Assembly: GCA_963809875.1 (NCBI GenBank)
Contig: CAWELC010000006.1
Coordinates: forward strand, 128,591-192,590
Origin: an uncultured delta proteobacterium
GTDB taxonomy: Bacteria > Desulfobacterota > Zymogenia > Zymogenales > Zymogenaceae
DNA length: 64,000 nucleotides
Direction: 5' to 3'
The notes beneath the pieces are model-generated. The model was not told the DNA's origin. It saw only the letters and a program-made list of their open reading frames with translations, and did not search any database. The position numbers and the translations under genes were made by a program. Positions 1-64,000 of the stretch are shown here, one piece after another (the first letter of the stretch is position 1; each line of letters begins with the position of its first letter).

Positions 1-834
1 CAGGTCTTCCCTGCCCACCATCGCCGAAAGAGGATACCCGTTGGCGATCGCTTTGCAGTAGCAGGAGATATCGGGGGTGAAGCCGAAGTGTTCGTGGGAG
101 CCCGCGAGGTTGAGGCGGAATCCCGCCCGGATATCGTCGAGGATCAGGACGATCCCCTCCTTGGTGCAGGTCTTGCGGACGCCCTCCCAGAACCCCTTGG
201 GCGGCATGACCTGATCGGCCCAGGTGGGGTGATGGTAGGGGGTGAAGATCGCCCCGGCGATGTCTCCCCGGTACTCGTCGGCAAGCCGGTTGAACTCGGC
301 AAGGTCGCCCCAGTCGATGGTCAGGATGTGGGCGCGATCTTCCGGCAGAACCCCGCCGTGACCCGCGCCGGTCCAGGGTGCGGTGCCGTGATAGGCACCG
401 TTGGCCATGATGATCTTCCTCTTCTTGGTATGCTCCCGGGCCATCAGGAGGGCGTGGTTGGTCATGTCCGCGCCGTTCTTGCCGAAGACGACCCACTCGG
501 CCATCGGGATGGTCTTGGTGATGAGCTCGGCAAGCTCCACCATGACCTCGCCGGGATGGTTGGTGGTGTTGGCCAGTTTGCGCTGCTTATCGGCGGCCGC
601 GTCCACCTCGGGGTGATTGTGGCCGAGGACCATCGGTCCGTAGGCGCACATGAAGTCGATGTATTCGTTACCGTCCACGTCCCAGTATCGGCACCCCTTT
701 GCCTTTGCCGTGAAATAGGGGGAGGTCATAGCGCCGGCCATAACCGGGGTGAGGTGGCCGTATATCCCCTGGGGAATGACCTTTGCCGCCCGTTTGAAAA
801 GCTCTATCGATTTCTTATATCTTTCTTCCGACAT
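1..834 (-). CDS. class-III PLP aminotransferase (glutamate-1-semialdehyde aminomutase-like), 3' end beyond window
   Basis: Manual reverse translation from ATG (834..832) is uninterrupted: MSEERYKKSIELFKRAAKVIPQGIYGH...WDVDGNEYIDFMCAYGPMVLGHNHPEVD...LILDDIRAGFRLN...CYCKAIANGYPLSAMVG (PLP-lysine context). It is absent from the ORF track because there is no stop in the window. The 88..1638 + ORF is its antisense shadow. Confidence 0.8.
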   Translation of the reverse strand, partial: MSEERYKKSIELFKRAAKVIPQGIYGHLTPVMAGAMTSPYFTAKAKGCRYWDVDGNEYIDFMCAYGPMVLGHNHPEVDAAADKQRKLANTTNHPGEVMVELAELITKTIPMAEWVVFGKNGADMTNHALLMAREHTKKRKIIMANGAYHGTAPWTGAGHGGVLPEDRAHILTIDWGDLAEFNRLADEYRGDIAGAIFTPYHHPTWADQVMPPKGFWEGVRKTCTKEGIVLILDDIRAGFRLNLAGSHEHFGFTPDISCYCKAIANGYPLSAMVGREDL

Positions 835-885
835 GGTTGCCTCCGTGTCTATGGTGTATTCCGGTTTATCCGGACAGTGATGACT

Positions 886-1641
886 CTATTGGGTGTACTC
901 TCCCACCTTGAGCATGAGCTGAGAGAGCTGGTCGGCCATGGGCAGGGACCCGGAAAGGGTAATGTCGCCCATCGGTATTGCCGCCATGAAGTCCAGCTTC
1001 CCGACGAACATCTTGTACGCGATGTCGTAGTCTCTGAACGACATGAACATGCTGTAATCCTTGGGTCTCCCCTTTGCCCCGCGAAAAGAGGTCCGCCGCT
1101 TCTCTATGATTGCGGAAGGCCCGCCTCTGACCTCGAACTGGGCGATTCCGTCAGGCATCTTTCCCGCCAGTTTTTGCCCCTCGGCCTGTCCCACGATGGC
1201 GGCGCCGAGGGTTGCGGCAAACAGCATCAGGGTTGCGGCAAGCTTCCTCTCCCCCGGATTCAGCGGCTTTTTCGGGTTGGGGTCCATGTAAAAATTGAGG
1301 CGCTCGCCGAGCTTCGTGAAGGCGTTGACCAGTTTGAGGTTCCAGATGCCCCATACGGGAAGCGGCAGGGCGAACCCTTTGTTCTTGAAGAGATTGTTGA
1401 GCATTTTCACGGTAGGGAGAAACAGCGTGATGGAGCTCTTCTTTTCATTTCCCTGGGAAACGGTGAGGATCCCGTCCCTCATTTCGACCTGGGCCGCCAG
1501 ACCCTGCGGGGCCCTGAAGGTGATGACGCCGGAAAGTCCCTGGATCGCTTTTTTGGCCGCGTCGTCCCCCGAGGGCAGCTCCTCAAAGAGGGGCAGGACG
1601 GCCTGAAGAAAAATTCGGGCGGTGGTGAGTTCTTTTGACAT
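886..1641 (-). CDS. hypothetical protein, C-terminal SCP2/sterol-carrier-like region
   Basis: 251-aa ORF with protein-like composition. The C-terminus, FVGKLDFMAAIPMGDITLSGSLPMADQLSQLMLKV, resembles the SCP2 GKL...G.I...G motif. It is co-directional with the neighbouring acyl-CoA genes. Confidence 0.5.
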   Translation of the reverse strand: MSKELTTARIFLQAVLPLFEELPSGDDAAKKAIQGLSGVITFRAPQGLAAQVEMRDGILTVSQGNEKKSSITLFLPTVKMLNNLFKNKGFALPLPVWGIWNLKLVNAFTKLGERLNFYMDPNPKKPLNPGERKLAATLMLFAATLGAAIVGQAEGQKLAGKMPDGIAQFEVRGGPSAIIEKRRTSFRGAKGRPKDYSMFMSFRDYDIAYKMFVGKLDFMAAIPMGDITLSGSLPMADQLSQLMLKVGEYTQ

Positions 1642-1907
1642 AGGTGCCTCCGAACTGGTGATAGAAAAGTTAATCTATTCGTCAGTGGTCCGGCGAAAAA
1701 GACCACTCGTTTCGAACCTGCGTTGGGGCCGACCCGATAGCGTGGGGCGCGGTAGCGCGCCTGACCTGTCACAGTATCATCACGGCACGTCTCAGAATAT
1801 CACCCCGCAGCCGGTGTGCGTGGTCCGCGTCTCGCGACGGTGCGAAGACCGCGCACACAAAGGGCGGGCGACGCCGGGCCGCGGCGGGCCGGCGCCCGAT
1901 GAGAAAC

Positions 1908-61872: not shown

Positions 61873-63510
61873 ATGAAAAAGATTCGCGGCGCCGATATCC
61901 TCATCGAGGCCCTCCTGGCGGAAGGGGTCAAGGTCGCCTTCGGCTACCCCGGCGGGGCGATCCTGCCCCTCTACGACCGGCTGTGCGACTGTCCCATCCG
62001 GCACATCCTGGTGCGGCACGAGCAGGGAGCGGCCCACATGGCCGACGGGTATGCCCGCGCCTCGGGCTCCGTGGGCGTGGCGATCGCCACCAGCGGCCCC
62101 GGCTCCACGAACCTGGTCACGGGACTTGCCACCGCCTACCTTGACTCGTCGCCCGTCGTGGCCATCACCGGCCAGGTGGAGCGCCGCTTCATCGGCACCG
62201 ACGCCTTCCAGGAAGTGGACATCGTCGGGATCACCGTCCCCATTACCAAGCACAACGAACACATCATGTCGGCCGCCGAAATCTACGGGGCGGTCAGGCG
62301 GGCCTTTTACCTTGCCCGAAACGGGAGGCCGGGCCCGGTGCTCCTGGATATTCCCAAGGACGTCCTGGAGGAAGAAGCCCCCTTCGACCCCCTCCAGGAG
62401 GTACAAATCGAGGGGTATAACCCGATCGTGGAGGGGCACGGCGGCCAGATCAAGCGGGCGGCAAAGCTCCTGGGCCAGGCGAAGTCCCCCGTCATCGTGG
62501 CCGGCGGCGGGGTGATCAGGTCGCGGGCGACCGACGAGCTGCTGCGGCTCTCGCGGCTGTTGGGGGCGCCGATCCTCACGACCCTCATGGGAAAGTCGGC
62601 CGTTCCCCAGGATTTCGAATACTACCTCGGGATGATCGGGATGCACGGCAGCAAGACGGCGGTCCAGACGCTTATGGGGGCTGACGTCATCGCGGCGGTG
62701 GGGGCGCGCTTCGGGGATCGGGCCGTCCTCTCCTACAAGAAATTCGAGAAGCTTGCCCGCTTCGTCCAGATAGACATCGACCCGGCCGAGATCGAGAAGA
62801 CCGTCGAGGTGGATATCCCCATCGTCGGGGACGCGAAGAAGGTCCTCCACGAGATCAACAACCGGCTGGCCAAGGACGAGGGGGAGCCGCTTGTCCCCAA
62901 GGCCCCGCCGCAGGCCGGCCTCGAGCGCTACGAGATGACCGGGCAGCTTTCCATCCCCGGCGTGGTGCAGACGCTGTCTGACATGGGCGGCGACTGCGTC
63001 GTCGTCACGGACGTGGGGCGCCACCAGATATGGGCCGCCAAATATTATAACAGCCCAAAGCTTCCCATCGGGCTCTTTATCACTTCGGGGGGGCTGGGGA
63101 CGATGGGCTTCGGGCTGCCCGCGGCCCTCGGGGCGAAGCTCGCCGATCCCGCGAAACGGGTCGTCCTGATCACCGGGGACGGGAGCTTTCTCATGAACAT
63201 CCAGGAGCTGGCCACCTCCAGCCAGCACAAGATTCCGATCCTGGCGGTGGTCATGAACGACCACCACCTCGGGATGATTCGTCAGCTTCAGGACACCTTT
63301 TACAAGAAGAAGCACGTGGAGTGCGTCTTCCCGGCCGACGTGGACTACGTCGGCGTGGCGCGGTCCATGGGGCTTGACGGGACGCGGGTGACCGATATCG
63401 GCCAGGTAAATGACGCCGTGGAGCGGGGGCTCGCCTCCGACCGAACCTTCGTCGTTGAGTGCATCATCGAGTCCCAGGAGAATATTCCGTATCAATCATA
63501 TGAGGAATGA
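61873..63510 (+). CDS. ilvB: acetolactate synthase large subunit
   Basis: MKKIRGADILIEALLAEGVKVAFGYPGGAILPLYD...RHEQGAAHMADGYARASG...TSGPGSTN...GDGSFLMNIQELATSSQHKIPILAVVMNDHHLGMI. An internal ATG is preferred over the ORF-track start at 61594. Confidence 0.92.
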   Translation: MKKIRGADILIEALLAEGVKVAFGYPGGAILPLYDRLCDCPIRHILVRHEQGAAHMADGYARASGSVGVAIATSGPGSTNLVTGLATAYLDSSPVVAITGQVERRFIGTDAFQEVDIVGITVPITKHNEHIMSAAEIYGAVRRAFYLARNGRPGPVLLDIPKDVLEEEAPFDPLQEVQIEGYNPIVEGHGGQIKRAAKLLGQAKSPVIVAGGGVIRSRATDELLRLSRLLGAPILTTLMGKSAVPQDFEYYLGMIGMHGSKTAVQTLMGADVIAAVGARFGDRAVLSYKKFEKLARFVQIDIDPAEIEKTVEVDIPIVGDAKKVLHEINNRLAKDEGEPLVPKAPPQAGLERYEMTGQLSIPGVVQTLSDMGGDCVVVTDVGRHQIWAAKYYNSPKLPIGLFITSGGLGTMGFGLPAALGAKLADPAKRVVLITGDGSFLMNIQELATSSQHKIPILAVVMNDHHLGMIRQLQDTFYKKKHVECVFPADVDYVGVARSMGLDGTRVTDIGQVNDAVERGLASDRTFVVECIIESQENIPYQSYEE

Positions 63511-63526
63511 ACCCGGGAGCACGACC

Positions 63527-64000
63527 ATGCAGAAGATCATTTCGATACTCGTGGAAGACAGGCCGGGCGTCCTGATGCGCATCGCCGGTCTCTTCTACCG
63601 CCGGGGCTTCAACATCGACGCCCTGACGGTGGGCAGGACCGAGATCCCCGGCAAGAGCCGCTTTACCATCACGGTCAACGGCGACGAGGCGGTCCTCGAA
63701 CAGGTCAGGAAACAGGTTCAGAAGGTGCTGAACGTCCACCGGACCGCCGAGCACGACAGCAAGAACTCACAGCTTCGCGAGTACGCCCTCATCAAGATCA
63801 ACTTCACCGAGAGCACCAAGACCGAGATCCTGCACCTGGTTGATTTCTTTCGGGGCAGGGTCATCGATATCTTCGACGGGGCGGCTATCGTCGAGATCGC
63901 CGAGGAGGAGTCCCGCATCGACGCCTTCATGGAGCGGCTCATCCCCTACGGGGTCGTCGAGTCGCTGAGGACCGGAAAGGTATCGATGTACCGCGGCAAG
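63527..64000 (+). CDS. ilvN: acetolactate synthase small (regulatory) subunit, 3' end beyond window
   Basis: Manual translation: MQKIISILVEDRPGVLMRIAGLFYRRGFNIDALTVGRTEIPGKSRFTITV (ACT domain). In frame to the window end; not in the ORF track because there is no stop. Confidence 0.88.
   Translation, partial: MQKIISILVEDRPGVLMRIAGLFYRRGFNIDALTVGRTEIPGKSRFTITVNGDEAVLEQVRKQVQKVLNVHRTAEHDSKNSQLREYALIKINFTESTKTEILHLVDFFRGRVIDIFDGAAIVEIAEEESRIDAFMERLIPYGVVESLRTGKVSMYRGK

What the first reader, a model, noticed from the sequence alone, without database searches (positions are those of the whole stretch)
1..64000. Frame disruptions are abundant, are +/-1 indels at short homopolymers, and are strongly clustered
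**What the disruptions look like**
- Reading across ORF-track fragments, at least 19 genes continue seamlessly in another frame.
- Local examples:
  - fba: PLVL|HGASSV at gtgcttgcacggc (~7238).
  - dapL-like: gccgtcggccacg (~12718).
  - M20: aggaaagatcatc (~18333).
  - cobO: A7 run 39584..39590.
  - glk: C-run ~5915-5921 and ggcgggcggg ~6398.
  - Barrel OMP: ~52855.
- Flanking peptide sequence stays well conserved and I saw no in-frame stops at these sites, which favours consensus (long-read/assembly) error.

**Uneven distribution**
- About 21 or more shifts lie in 19.7-24.6 kb (ADH at least 4, B12-rSAM at least 10, MttB at least 5, corrinoid 2).
- At least 6 lie in GH116 (58.9-61.6 kb) and 3 in glk.
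- I found none in 29.2-37.1 kb (rSAM, GT2, secF, secD, yajC, tgt, queA), 42.1-44.6 kb, 45.8-50.9 kb, the AT-rich island or ilvBN.

**Possible explanations**
- Coverage or strain-heterogeneity dependent polishing, which would mark these loci as population-variable.
- Methylation-motif-linked basecalling error.
- Real relaxed selection on accessory loci.
Basis: seen in the sequence. Interest (0 to 1): 0.6.

Follow-up and report, generated by a model that had tools for sequence, protein, structure and literature searches.

The report
Clustered single-base insertion errors in assembly
The many broken reading frames in this window are real in the sequence but are almost certainly consensus errors of a long-read-only metagenome assembly (extra single bases, packed into kilobase blocks), not decaying genes, so they matter mainly as a warning for anyone annotating this genome.

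Summary
The frame disruptions exist. Against five syntenic relatives I find 53 events in 20 of 51 assessable genes.

- **Kind of event:** they are not "+/-1 at homopolymers". About 90% are one extra base in the window. Homopolymer runs near the sites match background.
- **Clustering:** it is real (22 events in one 5-kb stretch; never reached in 5000 permutations). It is also genome-wide: a codon-model scan gives 1466 calls in 3.77 Mb, with 20% of them in 35 hot stretches covering 1.8% of the genome. One other hot stretch, checked with relatives, has 84 events in 20 kb.
- **Blocks:** they cross gene boundaries and strands.
- **Cause:** the same defect occurs, at other sites, in three relatives that are Nanopore-only Microflora Danica MAGs (12-30 events per ~60 kb). 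Two relatives from many-contig assemblies, one of them evidently short-read, have 3 each.
- **No sign of decay:** broken genes include fba, glk, secF and lolA. They show no in-frame stops, normal dN/dS, and no excess private amino-acid changes.

Verdict: assembly artefact. Relaxed selection is rejected and I found no shared motif.

The parts
2900..5488 (-). 2-oxoacid dehydrogenase E1 alpha/beta fusion gene. Events at 4782 (one base missing), 4894 and 4976 (one extra base each).
5468..6601 (+). Glucokinase gene. One extra base at each of 5915, 6024 and 6397. With the E1 gene and fba this forms one block (4782-7238) that spans both strands.
   Evidence: All five relatives agree.
6608..7538 (+). 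Class II fructose-bisphosphate aldolase gene. One extra base at 7238.
12136..13333 (+). One extra base at 12715.
18250..19525 (+). M20 peptidase gene. One extra base at 18334, 29 codons into the gene.
19693..20716 (+). Zn-dependent alcohol dehydrogenase gene. One extra base at each of 19876, 20297, 20550 and 20611. This is the start of the main hot block (19876-24215, about 5.8 events per kb).
20700..22180 (+). B12-binding radical SAM gene. One extra base at each of 20881, 20984, 21027, 21130, 21221, 21303, 21518, 21564, 21650 and 21845. One base is missing at 21882. Two further events, 20739 and 21340, have weaker support.
   Evidence: The orthologue aligned from the Nanopore MAG G001 carries no event of its own at this locus.
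22366..23862 (+). MttB-family methyltransferase gene. One extra base at 22921, 22961 and 23678. Two extra bases at 23595. A further event at 23823 lies near the 3' end.
23910..24563 (+). Corrinoid (B12-binding) protein gene. One extra base at each of 23973, 24010 and 24215. This is the end of the main hot block.
26380..27028 (-). LolA gene. One extra base near 26698.
27821..29213 (-). Two genes: an unknown 169-aa protein and a LolA-like protein. Events at 28109, 28146, 28231, 28537 and 29123, each one extra base. With 29218 this makes a 1.1-kb block across three genes.
29137..30490 (-). Radical SAM/SPASM gene. One extra base at 29218, which puts the last 27 codons out of frame.
31304..32252 (-). 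secF gene. One extra base at 32171, which puts the first ~27 codons out of frame.
39506..40109 (+). cobO (corrinoid adenosyltransferase) gene. One base is missing at the A7 run 39584-39590. This is the only classical long-homopolymer case in the window.
40292..41980 (+). Methylmalonyl-CoA mutase gene. One extra base at each of 40688, 41025 and 41560.
44614..45788 (+). Acyl-CoA dehydrogenase gene. One extra base at 45125.
52394..54115 (-). Outer-membrane barrel protein gene (no Pfam hit). One extra base at 52838.
54327..55653 (+). MFS transporter gene. One extra base at about 54885.
   Evidence: MFS_1 profile positions 1-159 end at nt 54884 in one frame, and positions 162-347 start at nt 54886 in the next frame. 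The codon HMM calls an event at 54882. G003 supports it.
58869..61576 (-). GH116 glycoside hydrolase gene. One extra base at each of 59544, 59686, 59720, 60051, 60172 and 60751. Two extra bases at 60693.

Best explanation
The disruptions are consensus errors of a long-read-only metagenome assembly, not mutations of the organism.

- **Likely source (inferred):** Nanopore reads assembled with metaFlye and given one round of Medaka, as for the sister MAGs.
- **Dominant lesion (shown):** one spurious extra base, of any kind, outside homopolymers.
- **Distribution (shown):** the error rate is very uneven. Kilobase-scale blocks of 1-20 kb carry 4-6 extra bases per kb, while long stretches between them are clean.
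- **Cause of the blocks (inferred, not shown):** these are places where polishing had too little usable read support. Possible reasons are low local depth, reads of a co-occurring strain, or draft sequence left unpolished.
- **Biology:** the genes themselves are intact in the organism.
For: 1. **Platform link.**
   - In the ~60-kb syntenic stretch, G000 has 58 majority-supported frameshifts.
   - The same test gives 29, 30 and 12 in G003, G005 and G001. Their record titles identify them as Microflora Danica long-read MAGs.
   - The catalogue paper says those MAGs were made from Nanopore reads only, with Flye --meta --nano-hq and one round of Medaka (PMC12313526).
   - G002, a k87-named Zodletone MAG in 90 contigs, has 3. 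G006 (50 contigs, provenance not looked up) also has 3.
2. **Sites are private.** The relatives' events lie in other genes: G001 clusters in the E1 gene and G003 in the 30-37 kb genes.
3. **Second region.** In G000 C8:70-90 kb there are 84 events, against 4, 12, 6 and 1 in the orthologous stretches of G002, G001, G003 and G005.
4. **Unnatural spectrum.** Of 136 pooled events, 104 are single-base insertions, 7 are two-base insertions and 11 are single-base deletions. No in-frame stops occur inside any of the 19 relative-aligned broken genes of the window.
5. **No relaxed selection.**
   - Median dN/dS is 0.116 in broken genes against 0.145 in intact genes.
   - Private amino-acid changes at sites invariant in the relatives are 3.17% (hot), 3.52% (warm) and 3.18% (cold).
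6. **Housekeeping genes are hit:** fba, glk, secF, lolA, methylmalonyl-CoA mutase.
7. **Blocks ignore gene borders and strand:**
   - 4782-7238 covers three genes on both strands.
   - 28109-29218 covers three genes.
   - 19876-24215 covers four genes.
8. **Genome-wide pattern.**
   - The codon-HMM scan gives 1466 calls, with one-base skips to two-base skips at 1038:428.
   - Variance/mean is 2.7 in 5-kb bins.
   - 35 hot stretches hold 20% of the calls in 1.8% of the genome.
   - The same model gives about 1 call per 10 kb on the G002 and G006 stretches.
9. **Published context.** Nanopore R10.4 bins below ~40x need short-read polishing (PMC9262707). Soil Nanopore assemblies show more frameshift errors than HiFi assemblies (PMC13087279).
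10. **Earlier notes.** Notes of this scan report frameshifts in rpoH, mnmG, dusB and others elsewhere in the genome.
Against: - The lack of read support for the extra bases is therefore inferred, not seen.
- The provenance of G000 itself is hidden. Its being a Nanopore-only MAG is inferred from its 12 large contigs, its sister genomes and its error profile.
- A strong insertion bias outside homopolymers is not the textbook Nanopore consensus error, which is homopolymer deletions.
- The sites show a codon-phase bias. Events directly after third codon positions number 43 of 94, against 28% in a null simulation (p about 0.001). G is never inserted after T (0 of 33, against 30% in the null). A purely random error process does not predict either result.
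Confidence: 0.9

Rival explanations
1. The hot blocks mark segments where the sampled population is heterogeneous (co-assembled strains or recombined tracts). The polisher renders some polymorphic sites as two bases, which gives a net +1. On this reading the lesions are still artefacts, but their positions carry biological information.
For: - The lesions are almost all insertions, and the inserted base differs from its neighbours more often than chance (30% equal a neighbour, against 41% in the null).
- Sites are enriched directly after wobble positions (43/94 against 28%).
- In many such cases some relatives carry the inserted base at the adjacent wobble site.
- The events form kilobase blocks.
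Against: - The inserted base and its neighbour form a transition pair only slightly more often than chance (53 against 44 expected, p=0.04). Natural SNPs are mostly transitions.
- G/C richness of third positions, together with a preference for a G/C left neighbour, can produce part of the phase bias.
- No near-identical alternative contigs (haplotigs) exist in the bin. Duplicated contig ends are ~85% identical and differ mainly by substitutions.
- There is no read evidence.
Confidence: 0.25
2. The frameshifts are real mutations. On this reading the genes are pseudogenes decaying under relaxed selection, concentrated in accessory loci.
For: - Clustering in a few operon-like groups (ADH/rSAM/MttB/corrinoid protein; GH116).
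- Bacterial genomes do contain frameshifted pseudogenes.
Against: - Up to 13 indels sit in one 1.5-kb gene with no in-frame stop and 79% amino-acid identity to the orthologue.
- The spectrum is about 90% insertions. From my own knowledge, bacterial mutation is deletion-biased.
- dN/dS and private substitutions equal those of intact genes.
- Essential genes are hit: fba, glk, secF, lolA.
- Blocks cross strands and genes.
- The loci are conserved and syntenic in the relatives and intact in G002 and G006.
- The codon-model scan implies roughly 1700 events genome-wide once its baseline and recall are allowed for.
Confidence: 0.03
3. Systematic basecalling error at a DNA-methylation motif.
For: Mild enrichment of CG-rich strings near the sites. 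CGC occurs at 78 against 58.6 expected (p=6e-4), and CGCG, CCGG and CCGCGC are near the threshold. Inserted bases create CG or GC dinucleotides more often than chance (33 against 23, p=0.006).
Against: - No motif is present at more than a small minority of the 136 sites.
- A motif error would be spread wherever the motif occurs, not confined to kilobase blocks.
- Methylation errors are typically substitutions (my own knowledge).
Confidence: 0.05
4. Programmed recoding (ribosomal frameshifting or transcriptional slippage) restores the frames.
For: None, beyond the fact that the flanking peptide continues in another frame.
Against: - Up to 13 sites occur in one gene.
- There is no slippery run or homopolymer at the sites.
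- The sites are not conserved in any relative.
Confidence: 0.01

Closest known systems
Frameshift (indel) consensus errors in long-read assemblies and MAGs, as measured by IDEEL-type tests (Sereika et al. 2022, PMC9262707; nanoMDBG paper, PMC13087279)
   Same: - Truncated or split genes whose protein continues in another frame.
- Seen in Nanopore-only bins, with 3 events each in the two many-contig relatives (one evidently short-read).
- Known to be worse at low coverage and in soil or sediment data sets.
   Different: - The classical description is homopolymer indels, chiefly deletions.
- Here about 90% are single-base insertions with no homopolymer association.
- They are packed into 1-20 kb blocks at 4-6 per kb.
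Microflora Danica long-read MAG catalogue (PMC12313526)
   Same: - The three closest long-read relatives are from this catalogue and show the same defect.
- The pipeline (Flye --meta --nano-hq plus one round of Medaka, no short-read polishing) fits the error profile.
   Different: - The catalogue's own quality check looked at coding density below 75% and long homopolymers in low-GC genomes.
- That check does not capture the defect seen here, in a 59% GC genome with normal coding density.
- Membership of G000 in the catalogue is inferred, not shown.
Bacterial pseudogenes / reductive genome decay
   Same: Many genes are interrupted by frameshifts.
   Different: - There are no stops, no larger deletions and no rise in dN/dS or private substitutions.
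- The spectrum is almost all insertions.
- Essential genes are affected, and the blocks ignore gene boundaries.

Membership tests
Long-read consensus frameshift artefact | Orthologues in independent short-read assemblies of close relatives are intact at the same positions | tested here: met
   G002 (k87-named Zodletone MAG, 90 contigs) and G006 (50 contigs, provenance not looked up) have 3 events each over the syntenic stretch, against 58 in G000. The intact ORFs of the relatives that cover each site span the G000 sites.
Long-read consensus frameshift artefact | Other assemblies made with the same platform show the same kind of lesion at non-orthologous sites | tested here: met
   G001, G003 and G005 (MFD Nanopore-only MAGs) have 12, 29 and 30 events at other positions. 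The orthologues of the G000 C8 hot block are not hot.
Long-read consensus frameshift artefact | Reads do not support the indel, or depth is low or heterogeneous at the sites | not testable with these tools
Long-read consensus frameshift artefact | Classical Nanopore signature: indels in homopolymer runs | tested here: not met
   The longest run near the sites equals background (2.58 against 2.59, p=0.83). The inserted base equals a neighbour in 30% of cases against 41% in the null. Only cobO 39583 sits at a long run.
Real pseudogenes (relaxed selection) | In-frame stops, mixed indel sizes with deletion bias, raised dN/dS and private substitutions | tested here: not met
   No internal stops. 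111 insertions against 11 deletions. dN/dS is 0.116 against 0.145. Private changes are 3.17% against 3.18%.
Programmed frameshifting / transcriptional slippage | A slippery run at the site, one site per gene, and the site conserved in orthologues | tested here: not met
   No run enrichment. Up to 13 sites in one gene. Absent from all relatives.
Methylation-motif basecalling error | One short motif shared by most sites | tested here: not met
   The best k-mers cover a minority of the 136 sites, and only CGC passes Bonferroni correction.

The most novel reading that the evidence does not exclude
The kilobase error blocks may not be random depth dips. They may mark segments where the sampled population is polymorphic, with polymorphic (often wobble) sites written out as two bases by the polisher. 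If so, the positions of insertion blocks in Nanopore-only MAGs would be a read-free marker of strain-variable or recombining loci. In this window those would be the ADH/B12-rSAM/MttB/corrinoid-protein cluster and GH116.
Probability: 0.2. Interest if true: 0.35.

Novelty: not a real feature. Interest (0 to 1): 0.15.

Why it matters
- **Annotation:** about 40% of the assessable genes in this window are split or truncated by spurious bases. The codon-model scan implies roughly 1700 such sites genome-wide once its baseline and recall are allowed for. Gene calls, completeness estimates, pathway reconstructions and any "pseudogene" or "novel short ORF" reading in this genome must be discounted accordingly. 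The same applies to its Nanopore-only sister MAGs.
- **Quality control:** the error mode (insertions, non-homopolymer, in blocks) is not caught by the homopolymer and coding-density checks usually applied to such catalogues.
- **Biology:** it has no biological significance in itself.

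Tried and rejected
- **Six-frame HSP chaining.** Too noisy, because non-coding frames are also conserved in a 60% GC genome. I replaced it with my own frameshift-aware dynamic-programming aligner plus a majority vote across relatives.
- **The look-up of encoding contigs for a window protein.** Nothing was on record, because the genome's own records are withheld.
- **Homopolymer association.** None found.
- **Shared-motif search.** No motif, only a mild CG-rich context.
- **Transition-partner test for doubled SNPs.** Weak (53 against 44 expected).
- **Contig-end effect.** Weak (5.1 against 3.9 calls per 10 kb in the terminal 5 kb, p=0.04).
- **Alternative haplotype contigs in the bin.** Only ~85% identical repeats at contig ends, differing mostly by substitutions. 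They are not haplotigs.
- **GC content as a driver.** Only a weak correlation (Spearman 0.30).

Full report
**Setting**

The window is C6:128591-192590 of a 3.77-Mb, 12-contig MAG (GC 0.59, 89% complete). Five relatives carry the same genes in the same order. G001, G002 and G003 are in the same genus; G005 and G006 are in the same family.

A locus search named four of them:
- G001, G003 and G005 are "MFD...bin" MAGs of the Microflora Danica long-read catalogue.
- G002 is a Candidatus Zymogenaceae MAG from Zodletone spring with k87-type contig names, which I read as a short-read assembly.
- G006 (50 contigs) was not named by the search.

The catalogue paper states that its MAGs were made from Nanopore reads only, with Flye --meta --nano-hq and one round of Medaka (PMC12313526). 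The window's own record is withheld. That it comes from the same kind of pipeline is an inference from its contiguity, its sister genomes and its error profile.

**Checking the observation**

Plain HSP chaining was too noisy. I therefore wrote a local protein-versus-DNA aligner that allows frame changes. I ran every ORF of at least 100 aa from every genome against every other genome. For each query genome I kept the best non-overlapping alignments. I accepted a frame change in a target only if at least 2 other genomes, and the majority of those spanning the site, required it.

- The window has 58 such events.
- Six lie at gene starts or in spacers and were dropped after inspection.
- One more, in an MFS gene at ~54885, was found by the codon HMM and one relative. 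Pfam backs it: profile positions 1-159 lie in one frame and 162-347 in the next.
- That leaves 53 events in 20 of 51 assessable genes.

So does its remark that no in-frame stops accompany the shifts. Its "clean" zones are right except for 29218 (last 27 codons of the rSAM/SPASM gene) and 32171 (first ~27 codons of secF). Pfam confirmed the gene names on the intact G002 orthologues.

**What the lesions are**

- 50 of the 58 supported events need exactly one window base to be skipped.
- MAFFT alignments of +/-45 nt with the relatives resolve the 52 kept events as 41 single extra bases, 2 double extra bases and 3 missing bases; 6 are unresolved.
- Only cobO (A7 run, one base missing) looks like a classical homopolymer error.
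- The longest homopolymer within +/-3 or +/-6 nt of the sites is no longer than at random coding positions. This holds in the window and in the pooled set of 136 events (2.58 against 2.59, p=0.83).
- The inserted base equals a neighbour in 31 of 104 cases. Random insertions put through the identical MAFFT pipeline give 41%, and 48 of 104 are expected without the pipeline.

So the "short homopolymer" description is simply what any site in a GC-rich genome looks like. The "+/-1" description hides a strong insertion bias.

**Clustering**

I permuted the 52 events over the 50.4 kb that could be assessed. The permutations never reached the observed 22 events in 5 kb (mean 9.7, maximum 18 in 5000), the observed per-gene chi-square, or the observed 31 clean genes.

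The blocks do not respect genes or strands:
- 4782-7238 covers the E1 gene (minus strand), glk and fba (plus strand).
- 19876-24215 covers four genes at about 5.8 events per kb.
- 28109-29218 covers three genes.
- 59544-60751 lies inside GH116.

**Is it the organism or the assembly?**

1. The same test applied to the relatives gives 29 (G003), 30 (G005) and 12 (G001) events in the Nanopore-only MAGs. It gives 3 each in G002 and G006. The Nanopore MAGs' events lie in other genes.
2. Corrected-frame dN/dS against G002 has a median of 0.116 for broken genes and 0.145 for intact genes. dS values are similar, and the result holds against G001 and G003.
3. At sites where the relatives that align there (at least three) share one amino acid, the window differs at 3.17% in hot genes, 3.52% in mildly affected genes and 3.18% in clean genes. 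The hot genes therefore carry extra bases but no extra substitutions.
4. Housekeeping genes are hit: fba, glk, secF, lolA and methylmalonyl-CoA mutase.
5. An indel spectrum of 111 insertions to 11 deletions with no stops is not a natural decay spectrum.

Together these points reject real pseudogenisation and recoding.

**Genome-wide view**

I trained a codon-usage model on the genome and ran a Viterbi parse that allows frame jumps.
- In the window it recovers 36 of the 58 known events, and 33 of its 39 calls lie near a known event.
- On the G002 and G006 stretches it gives about 1 call per 10 kb.
- On the whole assembly it gives 1466 calls (3.9 per 10 kb). One-base skips outnumber two-base skips 1038 to 428.
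- Contig rates range from 0.7 to 7.5 per 10 kb.
- Counts in 5-kb bins have a variance/mean of 2.7 with a heavy tail.
- 35 stretches with at least 6 calls hold 20% of the calls in 1.8% of the genome. The window's main block is one of them.
- Hot bins have normal GC and coding density and remain dominated by one-base skips.

I verified one other hot stretch with relatives. C8:70-90 kb has 84 supported events in 20 kb, in 19 of 21 genes. The orthologous stretches have 4 (G002), 12 (G001), 6 (G003) and 1 (G005). Allowing for baseline and recall, the genome carries roughly 1700 such sites. Earlier notes of this scan report frameshifts in other windows of the same genome, including rpoH, mnmG and dusB.

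**Mechanism**

*Shown:* the lesions are assembly-specific, linked to the Nanopore-only relatives, almost all insertions, independent of homopolymers and arranged in blocks.

*Inferred:* the blocks are places where consensus polishing lacked usable support. Published work says Nanopore R10.4 bins below about 40x need short-read polishing (PMC9262707). It also says soil Nanopore assemblies show more frameshift errors (PMC13087279).

Hints that the process is not purely random:
- Sites fall directly after third codon positions in 43 of 94 cases, against 28% in the null simulation (p about 0.001).
- G is never inserted after T (0 of 33, against 30%).
- CG and GC dinucleotides are created more often than chance.
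- CG-rich strings are mildly enriched.

These hints fit either a k-mer-specific polisher error in GC-rich context or polymorphic wobble sites written out as two bases. The second idea is weakened by the near-absence of a transition bias and by the lack of haplotigs.

**Verdict**

This is a real property of the sequence file, a useful quality warning, and not a biological feature.

Noticed in passing
window 55700-58500: An AT-rich island (GC 0.37 against 0.60) holds three intact minus-strand ORFs with no Pfam hit (158, 151 and 570 aa). The 570-aa protein matches the G002 orthologue of the neighbouring barrel OMP (52394-54115) at about 35% identity. No frame problem was detected here, but the relatives have no syntenic counterpart, so it could not be assessed by comparison.
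   Followed up: partly
window 19693-24563: The Zn-ADH / B12-binding radical SAM / MttB-family methyltransferase / corrinoid-protein gene group is syntenic in four relatives and partly matched in the fifth (G006). The group looks like a methyl-transfer module. Its function was not studied.
   Followed up: no
window, all insertion sites; also G000 C8:70001-90000 (L075): The insertion sites show unexplained context rules. G is never inserted after T (0/33 against 30% in the null). Sites are enriched directly after third codon positions (43/94 against 28%). The inserted base differs from its neighbours more often than chance.
   Followed up: partly
window 21845-21882: A +1 event and a -1 event lie 37 nt apart inside the B12-rSAM gene. 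Such compensating pairs scramble about a dozen codons without breaking an ORF, so ORF-based checks miss them. Earlier notes describe similar pairs elsewhere in this genome.
   Followed up: no
G000 contig ends: C6:1-10018 vs C7:1-8031; C1:3848-6243 vs C9:568-2972: Contig ends share inverted segments of 85-98% identity that differ mostly by substitutions. These are probably repeats or paralogous regions at which the assembly broke. C1 and C9 are both hot for frameshift calls there.
   Followed up: partly
G001 (L016), orthologue of window 2900-5488: The sister MAG G001 has its own cluster of five frameshifts in the E1 dehydrogenase gene. So kilobase blocks of errors occur in the other Nanopore-only MAGs too, at different places.
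   Followed up: partly
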